DNA from: a virus
Lineage: Duplodnaviria > Heunggongvirae > Uroviricota > Caudoviricetes
Strand: one strand, 5' to 3'
Virus record (IMG/VR): IMGVR_UViG_2778260992_000008
Location: 1 to 56,203 of that record
DNA length: 56,203 nucleotides
Shown: piece by piece, positions 2,537 to 41,940 of the stretch
How positions within the stretch are numbered: the stretch's first letter is position 1
Layout: each line of letters starts with the position of its first letter
Notes under the pieces: generated by a model
The model's database searches: none
What the model saw: the letters and a program-made list of their open reading frames with translations, nothing else
What the model was told of the DNA's origin: nothing
Made by a program: the position numbers and the translations under genes

Positions 2537-3958
2537 TTAAAAAGATGCGTTGTTCTGGCTGTTTCGTGTGGAGAATCGACTTGCCGCCGGACGTTGTTGC
2601 ATTGACTGAATGCAAGCGGACGCCGCGCGGGCCTGGTCGCATGGGATGATGTTGCCGTTATCGTCAAACCGCTGGTAAACAGTCCCCGTTTTCCCGTGAC
2701 GGTTTTTTGAAACGATGATCTCCATATATTCGCGGGCAACCGATTGTTCGTTGTAGTAGCCGTCGCGGTAGACCATGATGATCCGGTCTGCGTCCTGTTC
2801 AAGATTACCGGAATCACGCAGATCAGAATTGTTCGGGCGCTTGTTCGGTCGTTCCTCAACGCGGCGGGATAATTGCGCCAGCGCCGCCACTGGCACGCGC
2901 AACTCTTTCGCCATCATTTTCAATGACCACGACAATTGCCCTACGGCGAGATCATGACGTTCGGCCTTAGCCAGCTTCATTAACCCGATGTAGTCAATCA
3001 TTACCATCCCCAGGTTAGGATGGTCCTGTTTCATCCGTTCGACGGTGGCGCGTATTTCCTCGACCGTTAACTGCGATGCGTCAACAATCCACACATCGAG
3101 ATCGGCAAGGGCACTCATTCCCTGGGCGACGTGCGCCCAACCTTCGTCATCCAGTTTTACCGGATTACGTAGGCAATCCGTTGATAAGTTCCCAGCGCCA
3201 GCGATAGCACGTTCAGTCATCTGATCGAGCGACATTTCAAGCGTGAACAGCAAAACGCCGACCCGTTGACCTTCGCCGCCAGGGTATGGACGTTCAGCCG
3301 CCGCGCGGGCAATTGCCAACGCTAACGCCGATTTACCAGACCCTGGGCGTCCGGCGATAAGCACCAGATCAGTAGCGTTAATGCCGCCTAACATTTCGTC
3401 GAGTGGTTCGATCCCTGTTTTGATGTTGTCAGAATTAACACCACATTCCATACGTTTGCTTAAGACTTCCGTATATTCCTGTACCGCGTCGCGCAACAGC
3501 ACCGGAATAATCTTGTCTTTCGTTGTCTTTAATTTTGAATAGCGGGAATCAAAATATTTCATCGTCTCCCTGACGGCTTCGAGCGTCCCGGTCTCCAGGT
3601 TGTAGCGGATATCGTCTATCAGTTCCAACATTTGCCGCCGCTGATATTCCTCCTGCAATAGAGCTGCGTACCCCTTAAGGTTGGCAGCAGATGGACACGA
3701 TCGCGCCGTTTGCATTAGCGGGACAAAATTTTCGTTACCGATTTCATCACCGACCATCAGCGCGTCAATAAGGTTTCTGTTTCTGGCTTGCGCCCGGATT
3801 ATCTCAAACGCTCGTTTATATAGTGGAATGGTGAAGACTTCAGGATCGAGCGTAGCAAGAACATCTTGCGCGTTAGGAGTAAGACCGCCCAACAGGAGGC
3901 CACCTATCACAGCCGCCTCCCGTTCCTGGCGTAATGAGTTTATTTGCTCAGTCACCAT
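2537..3958 (-). CDS. replicative DNA helicase, DnaB family
   Basis: 473 aa; Walker A GRPGSGKSALALAIA, DnaB-like N-terminal domain and RecA-like core motifs. Confidence 0.9.
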   Translation of the reverse strand: MVTEQINSLRQEREAAVIGGLLLGGLTPNAQDVLATLDPEVFTIPLYKRAFEIIRAQARNRNLIDALMVGDEIGNENFVPLMQTARSCPSAANLKGYAALLQEEYQRRQMLELIDDIRYNLETGTLEAVRETMKYFDSRYSKLKTTKDKIIPVLLRDAVQEYTEVLSKRMECGVNSDNIKTGIEPLDEMLGGINATDLVLIAGRPGSGKSALALAIARAAAERPYPGGEGQRVGVLLFTLEMSLDQMTERAIAGAGNLSTDCLRNPVKLDDEGWAHVAQGMSALADLDVWIVDASQLTVEEIRATVERMKQDHPNLGMVMIDYIGLMKLAKAERHDLAVGQLSWSLKMMAKELRVPVAALAQLSRRVEERPNKRPNNSDLRDSGNLEQDADRIIMVYRDGYYNEQSVAREYMEIIVSKNRHGKTGTVYQRFDDNGNIIPCDQARAASACIQSMQQRPAASRFSTRNSQNNASF

Positions 3959-5272: not shown

Positions 5273-6184
5273 TCATTGACAGCAAACAATCTCTTTATAT
5301 GTTTCTTCTACCATGTCGAAAACTTCAGGCCTGTAATAAAAAAATTCTTCGCTACCGCTAAATTTTACAGGAAAGTTAATTTTATAATTGCTAAAAGCCT
5401 TATGCATCGTTCTTTCTAATTCATATATATTTTCGGTTGGTCCATATAGCGTTTTCACGATATGCAAATCAGGAATTATAACGCCTGCTTTATGTGCGCT
5501 TCTTAATACCTGATTTCTTCGCTCGTTCTCCTTAACACTTACACCTATTTTCATTTGTGTAGGTACTTCCAGATCATCAACCATGATGTAAAGTTTTCCG
5601 TGATCGTGGGATAAAAAACCGCGTTTACCGCATTTCGGGCAACCGTGCCCGCATTTAAGGTGACTAGGCTTTGCTAACCACTTGTGATTACAAACTTTAC
5701 AGCGACACAATACCTTCTTCGCATCTCCGGTAATTTTCCCTAAAACTTCAACATCATGATTAGCCTTAACAATATTTGCAACTTGTTCTTTGTGTGTTAA
5801 TGTTGCTTTTAATCTCGCGCATTTCGGGCAACCGTGCCCGCATTTAAGGGCATTAGGTATAGACGACCATTCATGTCTACAAACCTTGCATCGACATAAC
5901 ACTTTCGTTTTGTCTCCTGTTATTTCTCCTGTAACTTCAACATCAGGATTAACCTTAGCAATGGCTACAACCTGTTCTTCGTGTGTTAACTTCGCATTTC
6001 CAGCGCATTTTGGACAACCCTGACCTCGCTTGAGGTTGCAAGGTGTAGGCGACCATTCATGTCTACAAACCTTGCATCTACATGTGACTTTTGTTTTATT
6101 GCCAGTAATTTCCCCGATCACTTCAACATCAGGATTGACGTCAGCAATAACTGCAACCTGTTCTTCGTGTGTTAACTTTCTCAT
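5273..6184 (-). CDS. triple zinc-ribbon repeat protein with C-terminal T5orf172/GIY-YIG-like domain
   Basis: Three ~47-aa repeats (LTHEEQV..NPDVEV.GEITG.KTKV.CRCKVCRHEWS...GCPKC); C-terminal KLYIMVDD...ENIYELERTMH...SGSEEFF; AT-rich; start 6184 chosen (ORF extends to 6226). Confidence 0.55.
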   Translation of the reverse strand: MRKLTHEEQVAVIADVNPDVEVIGEITGNKTKVTCRCKVCRHEWSPTPCNLKRGQGCPKCAGNAKLTHEEQVVAIAKVNPDVEVTGEITGDKTKVLCRCKVCRHEWSSIPNALKCGHGCPKCARLKATLTHKEQVANIVKANHDVEVLGKITGDAKKVLCRCKVCNHKWLAKPSHLKCGHGCPKCGKRGFLSHDHGKLYIMVDDLEVPTQMKIGVSVKENERRNQVLRSAHKAGVIIPDLHIVKTLYGPTENIYELERTMHKAFSNYKINFPVKFSGSEEFFYYRPEVFDMVEETYKEIVCCQ

Positions 6185-14376: not shown

Positions 14377-14915
14377 ATGAAAAATGATTACGGCGGAAGC
14401 CATACGCCAAAAGAAATAAAGGACTTATGGCAAACGCCAAAACCCGTTTTTAGAGGAATGGATCGTGAATTCGAATTCGTCGCGGATGTGGCGGCAAACA
14501 AGGCAAACGCATTAGTTCCGCGATATATAACCGAAGAGATGGACACACTCCATTATCCGTGGGGAGCGGTAGCAATGCCTGGTGAGTATGTCTGGCTTAA
14601 TCCGCCATATTCGAATCCGGGCCATTCGTAGATAAGGCAGCGATGGAACATCACCGAAATCATATTGGCTGTGTAATGTTGTTGCCCGCTGATATCTCTG
14701 TTAACTGGTTTATGAACGGCCTGGAGACGGCAAGCGAATGTCGCTTAATCACGCGCGGGCGGCTGGCGTTTATTAATGCTGCGACGGGTAAGTCAGCAAG
14801 CGGAAACAATAAAGGGAGCTTGTTCTTGATCTGGCATCCACGGTGCAAACATGAATGTATTTTCACGCAGATAACACGTAAAGAGCTATACGCAAGAGGT
14901 GCAAATAATGACTAA
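14377..14915 (+). pseudogene. phage Dam-type DNA N6-adenine methyltransferase, reading frame disrupted
   Basis: ORF 14377-14631 has WQTP...WLNPPYS then stops; downstream frame 14643-14915 carries the VMLLPADIS...WF segment; a 1-nt frame change near 14610-14630 would join them. Confidence 0.55.
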
Positions 14916-15408: not shown

Positions 15409-15892
15409 CAGGTTATTAGCCTGCGTTTATGTCGCCGTTTTCGTGATCATCAATCTTATTGTTAACCATTGCGGCCCGTGGGTAATTCCGATCACCACGG
15501 TAGCCGCCGTGTGTGTCAATATGATGATCCGTGACTTCCTGTTATATGACGGCGGCCTGAAATGGTCGGCTACCACATGCGCCATAGCTGGCGCGATCAC
15601 GGTGCTGATAAATTACGATGCCGGAATGGTGGCGATTGCGTCATTCGTCGCGGTTGTTTCCGGTGCGCTTATTTCTGGCGGTGTTTACCGGGTATTACCT
15701 GGTGACTTTGATTCTAAACGCTGGCCTGCAAATATAGCGTCCGCCATTGGTGATGCGTTAATTTTCCCCACGCTATCGTTTATGGCGTTTATGCCTGAAA
15801 TATCAGCTATGCAATTCATCTCAAAAATGGCGGCGGTAACGGTGATAACTATCATCATGCGCCGCTATTTCACGTTTGAGGGTAGGGAATGA
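15389..15892 (+). CDS. polytopic membrane protein, YhhQ/VUT-like (possible queuosine-precursor transporter)
   Basis: Several hydrophobic helices; resemblance to YhhQ-family segments judged by eye only. Confidence 0.4.
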   Translation: MKRVVIDRLLACVYVAVFVIINLIVNHCGPWVIPITTVAAVCVNMMIRDFLLYDGGLKWSATTCAIAGAITVLINYDAGMVAIASFVAVVSGALISGGVYRVLPGDFDSKRWPANIASAIGDALIFPTLSFMAFMPEISAMQFISKMAAVTVITIIMRRYFTFEGRE

Positions 15893-16677
15893 GCAGGGCT
15901 AAACATTGGTTAAATAAACAGCTTAGAAATTGGGTGGTGTGGTCGCTGTACGACGGCAGCGGGTACGCTGTTAAAGATTGGGCGGACGCTGGTTATAAAT
16001 GTTATTGCTTTAACTATGACGGCGCTAATCACGGCGATTATGACGGGGTAAAAATAATTCATCCAAATATTGAATATGTCAACGTCTGGATTGATAGCCA
16101 TTTCCTGGTAATGTTCTCCCCTGAATTGTCTGTATATCCAGATCCTGACATTATCCTGGGCTTTCCTCCGTGTGATGATCTTGCTGTGTCCGGCGCTCGT
16201 TGGTTCGCTGATAAGCGGAAGAAAGATCCTTACTTTCAGCAGAAAGCAGCGTACAACGCAAAACTGGTAGAAACGCTGGCGAGTATGTATAACGTCCCGT
16301 GGATGGTGGAAAATCCTGTGGGCGCACTGTCAACGTTATGGCGTAAACCTGATTTTATTTTCAATCCGTGCGCTTACGGTGGCTACCTGCCGGAAGATGA
16401 CAAGCATCCTGCTTTCCCGGAATACATCGCTGCCCGTGACGCCTACACGAAGAAAACTTGTATTTGGTGTGGAAATGGATTTAAGCAGCCGCTATTCCGG
16501 CCTGTATCGATGCCGGATGAATGGGAAGACAGTAAACAGCACGCTAAGTTAGGAGGAAAATCGAAACGCACTAAGATGATCCGCTCACTAACGCCGCGCG
16601 GCTTTGCCCGTGCTGTATTCCTGGCTAACGACCGGGCTATCACGCGGACGACGCTTAACCGTGTTTTACCGGATTGA
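15889..16677 (+). CDS. DNA C5-cytosine methyltransferase-like protein with atypical motif IV
   Basis: Motif I-like LYDGSGY; motif IV-like GFPPCDD (canonical PCQ); motif VI-like MVENPVG; only 262 aa. Confidence 0.45.
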   Translation: MSRAKHWLNKQLRNWVVWSLYDGSGYAVKDWADAGYKCYCFNYDGANHGDYDGVKIIHPNIEYVNVWIDSHFLVMFSPELSVYPDPDIILGFPPCDDLAVSGARWFADKRKKDPYFQQKAAYNAKLVETLASMYNVPWMVENPVGALSTLWRKPDFIFNPCAYGGYLPEDDKHPAFPEYIAARDAYTKKTCIWCGNGFKQPLFRPVSMPDEWEDSKQHAKLGGKSKRTKMIRSLTPRGFARAVFLANDRAITRTTLNRVLPD

Positions 16678-16699
16678 TGTTTACAAAATGGCGTCATTG

Positions 16700-16715
16700 T
16701 GTGATGAAGGTCACA
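16700..16715. promoter_or_regulatory. perfect CRP-type palindrome TGTGA-N6-TCACA
   Basis: TGTGATGAAGGTCACA, ~18 nt upstream of candidate -35 TTGTTC (16733-16738) and -10 TATACT (16755-16760). Confidence 0.4.
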
Positions 16716-16840
16716 TAATGGCGCTTTTTACTTTGTTCGGGTGTATCCATTTTGTATACTGCAATCAAACGAAATGCTCTTTAAAAATCCGGCCCCGCTG
16801 AAATGCGGAAACACATCACCTAACAGAATGAGATCAAATT

Positions 16841-17017
16841 ATGAACGATGACAGGTATGCGTGGCATGACGACTACGAGCGCGAATGCGTAATGCGGGCA
16901 ATGTGCAATTTGTGTAACCCCGACAAAGGAGACTGTAACGAGTGCAACAAATGCGTAGATCATTGGCTAAGGGCCGGAGCCGCCGCAAAGCCGAACGAAA
17001 TAGAAAATCGAAAATAA
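16841..17017 (+). CDS. small Cys-rich protein, NinF-like by position
   Basis: 58 aa with eight Cys (CNLCNPDKGDCNECNKC); immediately upstream of ninG; weak RBS. Confidence 0.35.
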   Translation: MNDDRYAWHDDYERECVMRAMCNLCNPDKGDCNECNKCVDHWLRAGAAAKPNEIENRK

Positions 17018-17031
17018 TTGGGGTGATCTTT

Positions 17032-17646
17032 ATGCAAAATCCCAAAAAACCCATAAGACGCCGTTGCAAGTGCTGCGGCGTTTTTTTTGAGCCTAAATAT
17101 CATAATCAAACGTGGTGCAGCGATGAATGTCTGGAAGAACTGAAGTTTGACCAGCTATGCCGCGACCGTGAAAAGGCTATGAAGGCGATGGAACGGAAGA
17201 AACGCCGCGATAGCCAGCGTGATGAACGCAACAGGAAGCGGAAACAGTTAAATCCGCGCAGTTATTGGTTAAAGCAGGCGCAAAACGTGTTTAACGCATA
17301 TATTCGCGAACGTGACGCAGGACAGCCGTGTATATCTTGCGGGACTTATTATTACGAACAATGCGGAATCGATGCGGGACACTGGCGCACAGTAGCGGCA
17401 GCCGGACACCTTCGCTTTAACGAGGATAACGTAAACCTACAATGCCGACATTGCAATCAGGTATTAGACGGCAATGTTGAGTTATACAGAATAAATTTAA
17501 TAAAAAAAATAGGATTAGAAAGGGTTGAGGCATTAGAAAATAATAACGAGACTCACAAATGGACGATCGAAGAATGCAAAGAAATAATAAATATATATCA
17601 GCGTAAATTAGACACATTAAGGAAGGAGAGAGCGCAATGCGCATGA
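17032..17646 (+). CDS. ninG: NinG/Rap-family recombination protein
   Basis: WLKQAQNVFNAYIRERD...CISCG...GH...LRFNEDNVNLQCRHCN...GN match lambda NinG; start 17032 with RBS GGGGTGA. Confidence 0.75.
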   Translation: MQNPKKPIRRRCKCCGVFFEPKYHNQTWCSDECLEELKFDQLCRDREKAMKAMERKKRRDSQRDERNRKRKQLNPRSYWLKQAQNVFNAYIRERDAGQPCISCGTYYYEQCGIDAGHWRTVAAAGHLRFNEDNVNLQCRHCNQVLDGNVELYRINLIKKIGLERVEALENNNETHKWTIEECKEIINIYQRKLDTLRKERAQCA

Positions 17647-17661
17647 TTGGGAGTGTATTGC

Positions 17662-18138
17662 ATGATGAATTGGCACGAATGGTTTTGTTACGATGGTATT
17701 AACCTGATATGGAAAAAGTCACGCGGTAGAATGAAAGCAGGGAGTATTGCTGGGTGTCCAAATGATACTGGTCGCATACGCGTTAGGCTTTTTGGTAGAT
17801 GGTATAAAGCGCACCGTATTATATGGGAAATGCACAACGGCCCTATCCCGGAAGGATACGAGATAGACCATTTAGATCATGACCCTAGCAATAACAGGCT
17901 TAATAATTTTAGATTGGTATTAGGTAAGGAGAACGCGAAGAATAGACCAAAAAATAAAAATAATACCAGCGGGTATACTGGTATCTCATGGGACAAAGGA
18001 AGGGGTAAATGGTCGGTAACGATAATGGTTAATTATAAAACCATTCATCTAGGTAGATTTGATAATTTAGAGGACGCAATAAAGGCAAGACAAGAAGCTG
18101 AAATTAAATACGGTTTTCATCCAAATCACGGTAAGTAA
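17662..18138 (+). CDS. HNH endonuclease with AP2 DNA-binding domain
   Basis: HRIIWEMHNGPIPEGYEIDHLDHDPSNNRLNN then GYTGISWDKGRGKWSV...HLGRFDNLEDAIKARQEAE; AT-rich insertion between ninG and rusA. Confidence 0.75.
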   Translation: MMNWHEWFCYDGINLIWKKSRGRMKAGSIAGCPNDTGRIRVRLFGRWYKAHRIIWEMHNGPIPEGYEIDHLDHDPSNNRLNNFRLVLGKENAKNRPKNKNNTSGYTGISWDKGRGKWSVTIMVNYKTIHLGRFDNLEDAIKARQEAEIKYGFHPNHGK

Positions 18139-18151
18139 GGAGAAAGGTAGC

Positions 18152-18571
18152 ATGAATGAATATTCTTTTAGTCTGCCTTACCCGCCGTCGAATAACCGAT
18201 ATTACCGACATTCACGCGGTTTTCACTATATCAGCAAGGTTGGAAAAGAATACAGGGAACAGGTAAGAGACATCATCGAGCTATTAAATTTAAATATTAA
18301 CCTACCTTGCCGACTGGCAATTGCCATTTACGCCGCGCCGCCGGATAACCGGATCAGAGATCTGGACAATATCCCTAAATGCCTTTTTGACAGCCTTACT
18401 TATGCCGGATTCTGGAAGGATGACGGGCAAATCGACTCAATAAAAATTGTTCGCTGCCGGAAGGTAAAAGGCGGACGCTTGTTTATTAAGATACGCGAGC
18501 GCGGCGACCTGCTACCGGATATTGACGAATACGCGACGAATATGTGGGGTGACAATGAAAAACGAAATTAA
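18152..18571 (+). CDS. rusA: RusA-family Holliday junction resolvase
   Basis: PPSNNRYY...RDLDNIPKCLFDSLTYAGFWKDDGQI typical of RusA. Confidence 0.75.
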   Translation: MNEYSFSLPYPPSNNRYYRHSRGFHYISKVGKEYREQVRDIIELLNLNINLPCRLAIAIYAAPPDNRIRDLDNIPKCLFDSLTYAGFWKDDGQIDSIKIVRCRKVKGGRLFIKIRERGDLLPDIDEYATNMWGDNEKRN

Positions 18572-18737
18572 AGATCTGCAAATTGATATTCAGCGTGATG
18601 AGCATGATTTAGAAACTGTCAGACAAATCCAGGCTTTTCACATGCGCGAATTGCTCGCATTAAAAGAGCTTGAGAGAAAGTTAGTCCAGGCTATTTCTGA
18701 TCGTAAACAACTGGCGGCGCGTTACGGGGGTAAATAA
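18555..18737 (+). CDS. hypothetical coiled-coil protein (60 aa)
   Basis: ATG 18555 with RBS GGGGTGA; inside track ORF 18522-18737. Confidence 0.4.
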   Translation: MKNEIKDLQIDIQRDEHDLETVRQIQAFHMRELLALKELERKLVQAISDRKQLAARYGGK

Positions 18738-19459
18738 TGAATTTAGAATCCATTCTAAAATTCCACTTCCCCAAATCGCCGCGATTATCAGACGAAAGCC
18801 GGGGCACGTCACCGGATGCGCTTAATACAACGGATGCGCTAACCGCTGCTGGTATGGCGCAATCGCGCGTAGAGCTTGGATATAGCGCTTTTTTAGGAAA
18901 GATGGAACTATCGCAAGCCGAAAAACACAGGGCCGTAGTTTTGCTTACAGAGCGTTTAAGAGCTATGGCAAAAGATTACGAATACGTGATGGAATTAAAT
19001 GAAGAACAACGCAATGATCTTATTATTCTTGTTGCCGTTTTCGCGTTTCGGGATTATTGCCAAAGCGCCGCGACGGAAAAAACTTGTATGGAGTGCGGCG
19101 GATATAAATTTACGTTTGACGACTACGGAGAAAAACACCTTTGCAAAAAATGCAAGGGGCATGGGAAAGTTCGCAATCATTGTAAACAATGCAAGGGGCG
19201 TGGCGAAGTACCGGATAAAGCAGCCAGCGAAGCGGCGGAAATGCCAGTTTTCAAAACGTGCCAGCACTGCGGCGGGCGCGGGTACTCGCGTTTCCCGGTA
19301 GATCTTGTCCGCCAGGCGGTTAATCAGCTTGTTTTCCCGGTAAGCCGATCAACCTGGTGGAAAAAATACCGGGTTTTCTATGAAGACGCCATAGCGGAGC
19401 TATTCAAAGAAGAGGCCCGCGCGGAAAGTGAAATCAAACGAGTGACACGGGGTGATTAA
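18737..19459 (+). CDS. DnaJ-type zinc-finger protein (CxxCxGxG x4), possible late regulator
   Basis: CMECGGYK, CKKCKGHG, CKQCKGRG, CQHCGGRG; downstream of nin/rusA where lambdoid phages often place Q. Confidence 0.4.
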   Translation: MNLESILKFHFPKSPRLSDESRGTSPDALNTTDALTAAGMAQSRVELGYSAFLGKMELSQAEKHRAVVLLTERLRAMAKDYEYVMELNEEQRNDLIILVAVFAFRDYCQSAATEKTCMECGGYKFTFDDYGEKHLCKKCKGHGKVRNHCKQCKGRGEVPDKAASEAAEMPVFKTCQHCGGRGYSRFPVDLVRQAVNQLVFPVSRSTWWKKYRVFYEDAIAELFKEEARAESEIKRVTRGD

Positions 19460-19659
19460 TGGATAAGCTGGAAATAAACGATCAGTTTGTCGTTCTCTTG
19501 TTTGAAGATAAAACAGGCGGCGCATGGTGTAAGAAAGTCACTGGTGCGGAAGCGCGTTTAATATTGGGTATGGCAAGCGCGTTAAATGAAGGCGAATTGC
19601 CTGCCATCCCTATTAAGCCTGTCAAAATTTACAAGCGGGGTGACGATGATGAAGCCTAA
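19459..19659 (+). CDS. hypothetical protein
   Basis: 66-aa ORF, ATGA-type junction with upstream gene. Confidence 0.35.
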   Translation: MDKLEINDQFVVLLFEDKTGGAWCKKVTGAEARLILGMASALNEGELPAIPIKPVKIYKRGDDDEA

Positions 19660-25127: not shown

Positions 25128-25619
25128 ATGATTAGCCAATCGCTGAAGAATAAAATTATTGCTGCGGCGGCTGGTGGGGCGATCGCTATTGCGGCGGTGA
25201 TGGTTAAACCATTAGAGGGCGTGGAGTACGATCCCTATCGTGATGTTATCGGTGTATGGACCGTTTGTTATGGTCACACCGGAAAAGACATCATGCTGGG
25301 TAAGACTTACACGCAATCAGAATGCGATGCTTTGTTAAACAAAGATCTCCACAAAACCGCAAAAGCGATTGACCCATATATTAAAGTCGAAATATCAGAT
25401 TTTACCCGCGCGGCGCTTTATTCATTCGCCTATAACGTAGGCGCTACCAACTTCAAAACATCAACCTTATTAAAACTACTCAACGATGGCAAGAAATCCG
25501 AAGCGTGCGCCCAGCTTAAACGCTGGATATATGCTGGTGGTCAAAAATGGCAAGGTTTAATCAACCGCCGTGATGTTGAATATGCCGTTTGTGAATGGGG
25601 GGAAACGTGGACAAGATAA
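25128..25619 (+). CDS. SAR endolysin, T4-type lysozyme family
   Basis: N-terminal signal-arrest-release helix [17 protein letters not shown] followed by [23 protein letters not shown] catalytic region. Confidence 0.75.
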
Positions 25620-26077
25620 AGGCGTTAATCATCGCCGTGATTGTTTGCATTGTTGCCGGACTCACCGCCGCGCTTTGTTACTACCAGTCAACCATAAACA
25701 CGCTACAGACTGAACTAACGACAACTCAAGGCGCATTAAAAACGGCAAGTAACACTATCCAGCAAATGAAGGATCGAAACGCCGAACTGTCAAAACTTGA
25801 TAAGAGGTATCACGATGAAATTAAAGCTATCAGGTCCGATATTGCCGATCTGCGCAGCGGTATTGATAGCGGCGCTATCAGGTTGCACGTCAACGCAATA
25901 CCCGTGCGAGTGCCCGACACCACCGGAACCGCCAGCAGCATTGATGGAGCCGCCTGTAGACTCACTTCCGACGCTGAATCGGCTTATCTATCCCTCAGAG
26001 AACAACTAAAAGAGAAAGACGCGAAGATTACCGGATTACAGAGCTACATCAAAACGCAGTGCTTACGCAAAGAATAA
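25595..26077 (+). CDS. i-spanin (Rz-like)
   Basis: N-terminal TM helix then coiled-coil periplasmic region; overlaps endolysin end (GTG at 25607 is an alternative start). Confidence 0.6.
25815..26009 (+). CDS. o-spanin (Rz1-like lipoprotein) nested in +1 frame of i-spanin
   Basis: Lipobox LSGC after signal [20 protein letters not shown]; Pro-rich mature part. Confidence 0.6.
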   Translation: MKLKLSGPILPICAAVLIAALSGCTSTQYPCECPTPPEPPAALMEPPVDSLPTLNRLIYPSENN

Positions 26078-41270: not shown

Positions 41271-41448
41271 ATTCAACTTCGTCATTTTTAAATTCGTTGT
41301 TTACATAAAGCTGTAATGCGCTTATCAGTTCGGCGGCTTGCTTTTTGTCTATGACGATTAATTCGCAGTCACTTTCAAGCCATAATCTTTCGTCATATTC
41401 AATGCTAAGATTAATCCGCCGACAACCTTCCGTTTCATGAATAATCAT
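41269..41448 (-). CDS. small acidic protein (59 aa)
   Basis: MIIHETEGCRRINLSIEYDERLWLESDCELIVIDKKQAAELISALQLYVNNEFKNDEVE; RBS GGGGGAAATA; ends at the bidirectional terminator. Confidence 0.35.
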   Translation of the reverse strand: MIIHETEGCRRINLSIEYDERLWLESDCELIVIDKKQAAELISALQLYVNNEFKNDEVE

Positions 41449-41539
41449 TATTTCCCCCTATAATCGACCATTCCGCGCAATATATCCCCTTCCGAAAATT
41501 ACCAACCAAATATTCCAGATCTCCCGCCATGTAAATTTA

Positions 41540-41689
41540 TCATCTTCCATATCTCACCCCATCGCGCTTATAAGGCTTGTTATCAGCAAACGGGATTAAC
41601 GCATCGTTTGCCACCTGGCGATTAAACCAATCTTTCAGGACAACCAGGGAAAACCGGATGCCGTAGCTATGTAATTCGTGCCATTTCAT
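41540..41689 (-). CDS. small hypothetical protein (49 aa)
   Basis: ATG overlaps stop of upstream 84-aa gene (ATGA). Confidence 0.25.
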   Translation of the reverse strand: MKWHELHSYGIRFSLVVLKDWFNRQVANDALIPFADNKPYKRDGVRYGR

Positions 41690-41940
41690 TTATGACACCC
41701 CCGCACGCCGCATAATTCATTGTATTTATGATGCTCAACAATCAACCAAACTTTTAGATCCTGGCTGTAAAGCCGCCAATCAGGGTTGATATCGAATTTA
41801 AAACCATAACCATCTCGTAACTTTTTGGGGTGGGCTTCTTTATTTAGGAAAGCATTTAATAAAGCCTTACCCTTTTTGATGATCCGGTCCTGCGCGTTTT
41901 TTTGTGCTTTCAAATTTTTATCAATCGCTACCAGTTTCAT
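41686..41940 (-). CDS. hypothetical basic protein (84 aa)
   Basis: ORF in track; second gene of a tightly packed minus-strand cassette. Confidence 0.45.
   Translation of the reverse strand: MKLVAIDKNLKAQKNAQDRIIKKGKALLNAFLNKEAHPKKLRDGYGFKFDINPDWRLYSQDLKVWLIVEHHKYNELCGVRGCHK

What the first reader, a model, noticed from the sequence alone, without database searches (positions are those of the whole stretch)
17662..18138. HNH-AP2 endonuclease inserted between ninG and rusA
A free-standing HNH endonuclease with an AP2 DNA-binding domain sits in an AT-rich island that splits the otherwise contiguous nin/rusA recombination block. This is a typical homing-endonuclease insertion.
Basis: partly seen in the sequence, partly recalled or inferred. 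Interest (0 to 1): 0.35.

Follow-up and report, generated by a model that had tools for sequence, protein, structure and literature searches.

The report
Homing endonuclease gene splitting ninG and rusA
A small selfish nuclease gene of a well-known phage family (HNH nuclease plus AP2 DNA-binding domain) has been inserted exactly where two recombination genes of an E. coli prophage normally overlap, which is an ordinary but unusually clean example of its kind.

Summary
ORF 17662-18138 (+) encodes a 158-aa protein with an HNH_3 nuclease domain and a C-terminal AP2 domain. The AP2 Pfam score is below the curated cut-off, but a pLDDT-88 model matches I-HmuI and then plant AP2 domains.

The window is a mEp021-like (mEpimmI group) E. 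coli prophage.
- In all 7 related phage records and 30 of 35 matching complete E. coli genomes, ninG and rusA overlap by ATGA with no gene between them.
- The window carries a 518-bp insertion bounded by a TAAGGA repeat, 21 nt before the ancestral ninG stop. It gives NinG a new tail and keeps the old tail as the rusA ribosome-binding site.
- The identical RusA protein occurs both with and without the insertion.
- An 836-912-bp mismatch-free tract (ninG 3' end plus HNH) is shared by six prophages that are otherwise 88-92% identical.
- One allele differs by 15 synonymous and 0 non-synonymous codons. The catalytic D69/H70/N91 are intact.
- At least four HNH-AP2 lineages (47-52% identical) occupy this same junction.

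The homing-endonuclease reading is supported. Cleavage and homing themselves are untested. It is a new member of a known kind and of low to moderate interest.

The parts
17032..17646 (+). ninG (rap) gene. The ATG at 17032 gives the 204-aa form annotated in relatives; the longest ORF starts at GTG 16942.
   Evidence: PF05766 NinG 5.9e-64 and phrog_171 1.9e-88. RefSeq annotates the 615-bp form in STEC308.
17260..18110 (+). Low-GC (40%) tract that travels as a unit: the ninG 3' 'allele A' plus the HNH gene. It is mismatch-free between the window and six other HNH-bearing prophages.
   Evidence: Tract lengths are 836-912 bp. It is the longest identical tract in 6 of 7 8.4-kb comparisons that are 88-92% identical overall. 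Against the HNH-less L104, 17262-17617 is only about 70% identical, while rusA onward has 4 mismatches in ~550 bp.
17618..18135 (+). 518-bp insertion relative to HNH-less alleles. The placement can slide by the 6-nt TAAGGA repeat, so 17624-18141 is equivalent.
   Evidence: The same gap, 17618-18135, appears in alignments to mEp021, mEp044, mEp554, L102, L104, L105 and L107. Homology of all HNH-less E. coli genomes stops at 17623.
17617..17646 (+). Left junction: TTAAGGA followed by the insert-borne new ninG tail (NinG ends ...LRKERAQCA* instead of ...LRRKAA*).
   Evidence: Sequence comparison. This tail is found only in HNH-bearing genomes: STEC306-308, and 0 hits in IMG/VR.
17649..17653 (+). 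GGGAG ribosome-binding site for the HNH gene, 8 nt upstream of ATG 17662.
   Evidence: Read directly from the sequence.
17662..18138 (+). HNH-AP2 endonuclease ORF, 158 aa.
   Evidence: The exact protein is found on at least 20 contigs; in all 8 places examined it lies between NinG and RusA.
17803..17937 (+). HNH_3 (beta-beta-alpha-metal) nuclease core, residues 48-92, with D69, H70, N78, N82, N91 and N94.
   Evidence: Pfam. D69/H70/N91 align with I-HmuI D74/H75/N96. D69, H70 and N94 are invariant, and N78, N82 and N91 are at least 90% conserved, in 57 homologues.
17968..18111 (+). AP2-type DNA-binding domain, residues 103-150: three strands plus a helix.
   Evidence: Pfam AP2 26.8 bits, below the cut-off. 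The model has strands at 108-111, 116-123 and 126-133 and a helix at 136-150. Foldseek matches TEM1, WRI1 and AtERF1 AP2 domains.
18136..18155 (+). Right junction: the retained ancestral ninG tail TAAGGAGAAAGGTAGCATGA. It now supplies the HNH stop codon (TAA), the rusA Shine-Dalgarno sequence (AAGGAG) and the rusA start codon.
   Evidence: Alignment to empty sites.
18152..18571 (+). rusA Holliday-junction resolvase gene.
   Evidence: PF05866 4e-15 and phrog_34 3.9e-43. The identical protein occurs with and without the upstream HNH.

Best explanation
The ORF is a free-standing homing endonuclease gene of the HNH_3 + AP2 family (I-HmuI-like His-Me finger nuclease). It has invaded the ninG/rusA junction of a mEp021-like (mEpimmI group) temperate coliphage.

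Shown here:
- A 518-bp block is inserted 21 nt before the ancestral ninG stop, bounded by a TAAGGA repeat.
- The block brings a replacement NinG C-terminus, its own ribosome-binding site and the nuclease ORF.
- It leaves the old ninG tail downstream, where it still provides the rusA ribosome-binding site and start codon. All three genes therefore stay intact in the same early-right transcript.

Inferred mechanism:
- When an HNH-bearing and an HNH-less phage or prophage meet in one cell, the AP2 domain and the N-terminal beta-sheet bind a site in or near the uninterrupted ninG 3' end/rusA 5' end.
- The HNH active site (D69/H70 with N91) nicks or cuts that site.
- Recombinational repair copies the nuclease gene and adjacent donor sequence into the broken genome.

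The ~0.85-kb identical tract shared by otherwise diverged prophages is what such co-conversion would leave. The target site, the type of cut and the homing event itself are not demonstrated.
For: Domain and fold: HNH_3 3.8e-20, AP2 26.8 bits, phrog_99 5e-67. The pLDDT-88 model matches I-HmuI and then AP2 domains.

Active site: D69/H70/N91 align with I-HmuI D74/H75/N96. D69 and H70 are invariant, and N91 is at least 90% conserved, in 57 homologues.

Presence/absence: the gene is absent from 7 of 7 related phage records and 30 of 35 matching E. coli genomes. The indel is a clean 518 bp. The new ninG tail occurs only in HNH-bearing genomes.

Same flank with both states: the identical RusA protein occurs with HNH (L103, L106) and without it (L102, L104, L105, L107, L108).

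Transfer as a unit: an 836-912-bp mismatch-free tract is the longest in 6 of 7 8.4-kb comparisons at 88-92% identity.

Selection: L098 differs by 15 synonymous and 0 non-synonymous codons.

Site fidelity and recurrence:
- The exact protein is always between NinG and RusA in the 8 places read.
- Four HNH-AP2 lineages, 47-52% identical, sit at the same junction while NinG is 85-97% identical.
- The family is found at 5916 places in 3805 phage records, often annotated as a homing endonuclease.

Literature: HNH+AP2 is a recognised HEG architecture (PMC10448857, citing Magnani 2004; PMC5714182 group 2).
Against: - No biochemical or genetic test of cleavage or homing is available, and the target site is unknown.
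- These phages are mosaic anyway, so an identical tract around the gene could arise from ordinary homologous recombination with the HNH gene as a passenger.
- HNH-less mEp021 already carries the same low-GC ninG 3' allele (90-100% identical over 17250-17550), so that allele is not strictly linked to the nuclease.
- The AP2 Pfam score is below the curated cut-off, and Foldseek E-values are weak (0.015-0.16) despite probability 1.00.
- Frameshifted or truncated copies exist in other genomes (P0007, P0008), so some copies are decaying.
Confidence: 0.75

Rival explanations
1. The HNH gene is a passive passenger: a relic or cargo gene that no longer homes. It is spread and lost only through the ordinary homologous recombination that shuffles modules in these temperate phages.
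For: Mosaic identity patches occur throughout the 8.4-kb comparisons. The low-GC ninG 3' allele exists without the HNH in mEp021. Frameshifted or truncated alleles exist. The allele is rare, found in 3 clonal genomes out of 5426 complete E. coli genomes.
Against: - 15 synonymous and 0 non-synonymous codon differences, with intact catalytic residues, argue that the protein is maintained by selection.
- The HNH tract is the single longest identical tract in 6 of 7 comparisons.
- Four divergent lineages at one junction are hard to explain without site preference.
Confidence: 0.15
2. The nuclease serves the phage rather than itself. Possible roles are degrading or excluding competing related phages or host DNA, or acting as the HNH partner of the terminase in DNA packaging.
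For: HNH proteins can be packaging cofactors in some phages (background knowledge; HK97 gp74-type). Cutting HNH-less competitors would also benefit the carrier, which overlaps with homing.
Against: - The gene is dispensable: isolated, plaque-forming relatives (mEp021, mEp013, mEp010, mEp044, mEp554, mEp515, MagusPhagus) lack it at this site.
- It is not next to packaging genes; it lies in the nin region upstream of Q.
- PADLOC gives only weak matches to 'homing endonuclease' models and none to a defence system.
- There is no paralogue elsewhere in the window.
Confidence: 0.07
3. It is an AP2-type DNA-binding regulator with a vestigial HNH domain, acting on transcription in the nin/Q region.
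For: AP2 domains are transcription-factor modules in plants and apicomplexans (one search matches). The gene sits just upstream of the late-gene regulator Q.
Against: The HNH catalytic D-H...N...N residues are intact and conserved across 57 homologues. The HNH half shows 8 synonymous and 0 non-synonymous changes against the STEC308 allele. Relatives regulate normally without the gene.
Confidence: 0.03

Closest known systems
HNH-AP2 homing endonucleases (Magnani et al. 2004 family in phages RB49 and Felix O1, cyanobacteria and ciliates; 'IPA-HNH' HEGs of vibriophage ICP1, Barth et al. 2023, PMC10448857)
   Same: Same architecture: an N-terminal HNH_3 nuclease with a C-terminal AP2 domain, as a free-standing gene in a phage genome. 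It sits at a boundary of genetic exchange, and close alleles differ in the DNA-binding domain (PMC10448857).
   Different: This one is in a temperate mEp021-like coliphage, at the ninG/rusA junction. It matches canonical Pfam HNH_3 strongly, whereas the ICP1 proteins are reported as too divergent for that profile. No family member at this site has been characterised.
I-HmuI (PDB 1u3e), intron-encoded HNH nicking endonuclease of Bacillus phage SPO1
   Same: It is the best structural and sequence match for residues ~40-97. The D-H and N catalytic positions align. Both fall in the same His-Me finger group 2 (PMC5714182).
   Different: I-HmuI is encoded inside a group I intron and uses a C-terminal helix-turn-helix region. 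Here no intron or other RNA family is detected, and the C-terminal module is AP2. Sequence identity is only ~24% over 86 columns.
Free-standing T4 homing endonucleases (Seg and Mob proteins)
   Same: The mode of life I infer is the same: an intergenic or gene-junction gene that cuts the HEG-less allele of a related phage and is copied in together with flanking markers. This is background knowledge and is compatible.
   Different: Seg proteins are GIY-YIG enzymes, and Mob proteins belong to a different HNH group (PMC5714182 table). Those are lytic phages with demonstrated activity; nothing has been demonstrated here.

Membership tests
HNH-AP2 free-standing homing endonucleases (His-Me finger group 2; Pfam HNH_3 + AP2; PHROG 99) | HNH_3 beta-beta-alpha-metal nuclease domain with the catalytic Asp-His and metal-binding Asn | tested here: met
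   HNH_3 E=3.8e-20. D69/H70/N91 align with I-HmuI D74/H75/N96. D69 and H70 are invariant and N91 is at least 90% conserved in 57 homologues. I-HmuI is the top fold match. The catalytic roles of the I-HmuI residues are taken from background knowledge (Shen et al. 2004).
HNH-AP2 free-standing homing endonucleases (His-Me finger group 2; Pfam HNH_3 + AP2; PHROG 99) | C-terminal AP2 DNA-binding domain | tested here: met
   Pfam AP2 scores 26.8 bits, below the 33.3 cut-off. The predicted three-strand-plus-helix fold at residues 108-150 matches TEM1, WRI1 and AtERF1 AP2 domains at probability 0.99-1.00. Close homologues carry precomputed PF00847 hits.
HNH-AP2 free-standing homing endonucleases (His-Me finger group 2; Pfam HNH_3 + AP2; PHROG 99) | Free-standing gene with presence/absence polymorphism at a precise site among close relatives | tested here: met
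   518-bp indel at 17618-18135. It is absent from 7 phage records and 30 of 35 matching E. coli genomes. The identical RusA occurs with and without it.
HNH-AP2 free-standing homing endonucleases (His-Me finger group 2; Pfam HNH_3 + AP2; PHROG 99) | Copying into HEG-less alleles with co-conversion of flanking sequence (homing) | tested here: inconclusive
   The 836-912-bp mismatch-free tract in 88-92% identical backgrounds is the expected footprint. It is also obtainable by ordinary mosaic recombination.
HNH-AP2 free-standing homing endonucleases (His-Me finger group 2; Pfam HNH_3 + AP2; PHROG 99) | Site-specific cleavage or nicking of the uninterrupted target allele | not testable with these tools
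   This needs purified protein and substrate DNA.
Intron-encoded HNH endonucleases (I-HmuI type) | ORF embedded in a self-splicing group I intron inside a host gene | tested here: not met
   No Rfam family matches at E<=1 in 16000-19600. The ORF has its own ribosome-binding site, and the flanking genes are complete.
Terminase-associated HNH packaging factors (HK97 gp74 type) | Located next to the terminase or portal genes and required for the phage | tested here: not met
   The gene lies between ninG and rusA, upstream of Q. Viable isolated relatives lack it at this site.
Anti-phage defence nucleases (PADLOC systems) | Match to a defence-system component model, with partner genes nearby | tested here: not met
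   Only weak hits to 'HEase homing endonuclease' models (4.6e-6 and 8.3e-5). The neighbours are NinG and RusA.

The most novel reading that the evidence does not exclude
In mEpimmI-type prophages, the ninG stop/rusA start overlap may be a dedicated landing pad where HNH-AP2 endonuclease genes turn over.

Evidence that fits this reading:
- At least four lineages (47-52% identical) occupy it. Three of them share a near-identical 5' end (ATGAATAATTGGCATGATATATTTGAATA...).
- Close alleles differ mainly in the AP2 DNA-binding domain.
- The nuclease marks the breakpoint at which ninG 3' alleles (window type) or whole rusA alleles (L015 type) are exchanged.

If the nucleases are active, they would be the drivers of allele exchange in the phage recombination-gene block rather than passengers. 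In one lineage the nuclease ORF is in frame with RusA, which could give a site-specific nuclease-resolvase fusion.
Probability: 0.25. Interest if true: 0.45.

Novelty: new member of a known kind. Interest (0 to 1): 0.22.

Why it matters
On its own it matters little. The protein family, its architecture and its selfish lifestyle are well described, and RefSeq already labels the close homologue as an HNH endonuclease.

Its value is as a tidy natural experiment. It offers filled and empty sites with an identical neighbouring gene, a defined 518-bp insert with mapped junctions, a sharply bounded identical tract, and several unrelated alleles at the same junction. All of this is in cultivable, K-12-infecting temperate phages (the mEp collection). 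That makes it a convenient system for testing whether homing endonucleases set recombination breakpoints in temperate-phage mosaicism, an idea so far argued mainly for lytic phages (PMC10448857).

Tried and rejected
- **Intron-encoded endonuclease:** rejected. There is no Rfam match in 16000-19600 at E<=1.
- **Defence-system nuclease:** rejected. PADLOC gives only weak 'homing endonuclease' models.
- **NCBIfam name for the protein:** none found.
- **Second copy in the window** (relatives mEp515 and mEp013 carry family members elsewhere): tblastn finds only the one copy.
- **Closer relatives or a donor context:** IMG/VR gives at most 53% identity in 80 loci. GTDB species representatives give at most 50% in 7 loci. 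The insert-borne ninG tail GGAGAGAGCGCAATGCGCATGA has 0 exact hits in IMG/VR. The origin of the insert therefore stays unknown.
- **GCC-box idea:** the GGCGGC motif in the empty junction of mEp021 and L104 could be an AP2 (GCC-box-like) target that is destroyed in filled sites. I dropped this because other empty sites have GGCAGC, and the mismatch positions suggest some filled sites keep GGCGGC.
- **Single ancient insertion with vertical divergence:** disfavoured. The HNH alleles are 47-52% identical while the flanking NinG is 85-97% identical, and the junction alleles are no closer to each other than to copies at other phage loci. The NJ tree on so short a protein is weakly resolved.
- **Promoter and terminator scan:** no better than shuffled expectation inside the insert.
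- **Literature:** the mEpimmI paper has no mention of HNH, ninG or rusA. A search for ninG + HNH + rusA found no description of this insertion. Magnani 2004 (PMC520932) is not held, so it is cited only through PMC10448857 and PMC5714182.

Full report
**What is there**

On the + strand, ORF 17662-18138 encodes 158 aa. A GGGAG sits 8 nt upstream of the ATG.
- Pfam gives HNH_3 (E=3.8e-20, residues 48-92).
- Pfam also gives a sub-threshold AP2 match (26.8 bits against a 33.3 cut-off, residues 103-142).
- PHROGs gives phrog_99 'HNH endonuclease' at 5e-67.

The neighbours are NinG/Rap (PF05766, 5.9e-64), RusA (PF05866, 4e-15) and antiterminator Q. A ninF-like ORF and a DNA methyltransferase lie upstream.

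The window is collinear with the mEp021/mEp013/mEp010 'mEpimmI' group of temperate coliphages, at about 81-86% identity (group described in PMC11893012). It is 100% identical over the compared 8.4 kb to a contig assembled from SRR3586862. The observation and its coordinates are therefore correct.

**Protein**

An AlphaFold2 model built on 57 homologues has mean pLDDT 88.
- For residues ~103-150 the best matches are the AP2 domains of Arabidopsis TEM1 and WRI1 and of AtERF1.
- Foldseek E-values are weak (0.015-0.16), but probabilities are 0.99-1.00 and the two hits tile the protein.

In the phmmer alignment to I-HmuI, D69/H70 and N91 fall on I-HmuI D74/H75 and N96. From background knowledge of the I-HmuI structure paper, these are the metal ligands and the general base. 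D69, H70 and N94 are invariant, and N78, N82 and N91 are at least 90% conserved, in the 57-sequence alignment. The nuclease site looks intact.

No group I intron or any other Rfam family is detectable around the gene, so it is free-standing.

**Composition**

The gene has 39.0% GC against 47.4% for the window, in the 2.3rd percentile of 477-bp windows. The low-GC zone begins about 17260-17300, inside ninG (36-40% GC). The 'island' is therefore the ninG 3' end plus the HNH gene, not the HNH gene alone.

**Empty sites and junctions**

In mEp021, mEp515, mEp013, mEp010, mEp044, mEp554 and MagusPhagus, ninG and rusA overlap by ATGA with nothing between them. The same holds in 30 of the 35 complete E. 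coli genomes that match this region.

Alignments to seven independent empty alleles all place the same 518-bp gap at 17618-18135. Homology of every HNH-less E. coli genome to the window stops at 17623, the end of TTAAGGA.

The sequences compare as follows:
- Empty allele: ...GACGCC-TTAAGGA-GAAAGGCGGC-ATGA-ATGAATATTC...
- Window: ...GACACA-TTAAGGA-[AGGAGAGAGCGCAATGCGCATGA ttgggagtgtattgc ATGATG...HNH...CACGGTAAG]-TAAGGA-GAAAGGTAGC-ATGA-ATGAATATTC

What the insertion does:
- It lies 21 nt before the ancestral ninG stop and is bounded by a 6-nt TAAGGA repeat.
- It gives NinG a new C-terminus (LRKERAQCA* instead of LRRKAA*).
- It carries its own ribosome-binding site.
- It re-uses the displaced ninG tail as the HNH stop codon and as the rusA Shine-Dalgarno sequence and start codon.

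All three ORFs remain intact. The new ninG tail occurs only in HNH-bearing genomes and has no exact match in IMG/VR. I read it as part of the insert. It ends in GCATGA like native ninG tails, which hints that it came from another ninG context.

**Evidence of movement**

1. The identical 139-aa RusA protein is found downstream of the HNH (L103, L106) and directly overlapping ninG with no HNH (L102, L104, L105, L107, L108).
   - Against the HNH-less L104, the right flank is almost identical (4 mismatches from 18136 to 18700).
   - The left flank from 17262 to 17617 is only about 70% identical, with GC 0.40 in the window against 0.51 in L104.
2. The exact HNH protein is on at least 20 contigs. 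In all 8 places examined it lies between NinG and RusA, but with different upstream and downstream gene sets.
3. In six of those loci, a mismatch-free tract of 836-912 bp (17260/17275 to 18110/18171) is embedded in alignments that are 88-92% identical overall. In 6 of 7 comparisons it is the longest identical tract, and the next longest are 161-610 bp.
4. The seventh locus, L098, differs from the window in 15 codons of the HNH gene, all synonymous. This indicates purifying selection on the protein.

Together these fit a ~0.85-kb unit (ninG 3' allele plus HNH) that has recently been copied into different prophage backgrounds.

The caveat is that these phages are mosaic throughout. HNH-less mEp021 carries the same ninG 3' allele (90-100% identical over 17250-17550). 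Ordinary recombination with a hitch-hiking HNH gene is therefore not excluded.

**Recurrence at the site**

Other prophages have different HNH-AP2 genes at the same junction:
- E. coli E21845 and IMG/VR locus L060 (99% identical to each other)
- E. coli N921
- IMG/VR loci L015 and L016

These are 47-52% identical to the window protein and to each other, while the flanking NinG is 85-97% identical. They are no closer to each other than to family members at unrelated loci of other phages. The NJ tree is poorly resolved for so short a protein.

Their junctions also differ. In N921 and L015 the HNH ORF starts at the very ATGA that ends ninG, taking over the rusA start position. In E21845 it starts at a GTG 8 nt before the ninG stop. 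A distant lambdoid contig (L083; NinG 40% identical) also has an HNH_3 gene overlapping the ninG stop, followed by a different Q and no rusA.

The 3' end of ninG is thus a repeatedly used site. Whether this reflects independent invasions or replacement of one HNH gene by another cannot be decided. The 5' ends of three lineages are nearly identical at the DNA level.

**How common**

The family is very large: 5916 places in 3805 phage records, many annotated as homing endonuclease or AP2 domain protein. This particular allele is rare.
- No phage record is above 60% identity.
- It occurs in three clonal STEC genomes among 5426 complete E. coli genomes.
- A few 84-92% identical clusters exist in draft assemblies.
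- Frameshifted or truncated versions exist (P0007, P0008). This is expected for a selfish gene that decays after fixation, though sequencing error in the A-rich linker cannot be excluded.

**Mechanism proposed**

*Shown:* the architecture, the intact active site, a precise insertion that preserves its neighbours, presence/absence polymorphism, purifying selection, and a shared identical tract.

*Inferred:*
- The gene is transcribed with the nin region from the early-right promoter. A terminator-like hairpin at 16690-16725 precedes ninF/ninG, as annotated in mEp021.
- The protein binds a site in HNH-less ninG-3'/rusA-5' DNA through its AP2 domain and N-terminal sheet, and nicks or cuts it.
- Repair from the HNH-bearing genome copies in the gene and adjacent markers.

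The filled allele would be immune because the site is split or altered. None of these steps has been tested.

**Comparison with the known, and verdict**

HNH+AP2 endonucleases are an established HEG class (Magnani 2004, as cited in PMC10448857; His-Me finger group 2 in PMC5714182). Barth et al. 2023 showed that such genes sit at boundaries of genetic exchange and shuffle DNA-binding domains. What I see here matches that picture: the tract boundary lies at the HNH 3' end, and the AP2-specific divergence in the STEC308 allele is 17 synonymous and 13 non-synonymous codon changes against 8 and 0 in the HNH half.

I found no paper describing an HNH gene at the ninG/rusA junction.

It is a new member of a known kind, and its interest is low to moderate.

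Noticed in passing
window 14377-14915: The Dam-like DNA adenine methyltransferase gene is split into two ORFs (84 aa and 90 aa). Related prophages (L094 245-784) have one intact 179-aa ORF. The window copy appears frameshifted after ...PPYSNPG, so it is probably a pseudogene.
   Followed up: partly
window 15889-16677; L094, L096, L097, L099, L100 and L101 about 1770-2980; L004 252-779: The slot just upstream of ninF/ninG holds a 262-aa methyltransferase (phrog_757) in the window. In several close relatives, a second and different HNH_3 endonuclease gene (175-192 aa, ~42% identical to the one studied) sits next to a shortened methyltransferase or replaces it. The nin region thus has at least two endonuclease slots.
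   Followed up: partly
L015 3001-3897 (also L016): In this IMG/VR prophage the HNH-AP2 gene at the ninG/rusA junction has no stop codon. It runs in frame into a divergent RusA (47% identical to the window's), giving a 298-aa HNH_3+RusA ORF. An internal AAGGAG plus ATG at about 3480-3494 could still start RusA separately.
   Followed up: partly
window 17955-18070 versus L004 (E. coli STEC308) 2094-2209: The 92%-identical STEC308 allele differs from the window almost only in the AP2 domain: 17 synonymous and 13 non-synonymous codons, against 8 and 0 in the HNH half. P0006 carries a third AP2 variant. This looks like DNA-binding-domain swapping between alleles and possibly retargeting.
   Followed up: partly
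window 17962-17985: The near-perfect palindrome AATACCAGCGGGTATACTGGTATC lies in the linker between the HNH and AP2 coding parts. The scan scored it as a minus-strand terminator-like hairpin followed by a T-run. It is probably chance and no function was tested.
   Followed up: no
L083 2237-4253: A distant lambdoid contig has NinG (40% identical), then an overlapping HNH_3 gene, then a PF06530-type antiterminator Q, with no rusA. The position directly after ninG is therefore used by this endonuclease family outside the mEp021 group as well.
   Followed up: partly
P0007, P0008 (E. coli assemblies): Truncated relatives of the window protein exist. P0008 is identical up to residue ~97, then frameshifted in the A-rich linker and loses AP2. 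P0007 lacks the N-terminus. These may be decaying copies or homopolymer sequencing errors.
   Followed up: no
PP180003.1 (mEp515) 41331-41825; PP180002.1 (mEp013) 25241-25723; NZ_CP076272.1 (E21845) 1520744-1521090: Related phages that lack the gene at ninG/rusA carry ~52%-identical family members at quite different genome positions. E21845 has four matching places. This group of phages hosts several HNH-AP2 genes with different homes.
   Followed up: no
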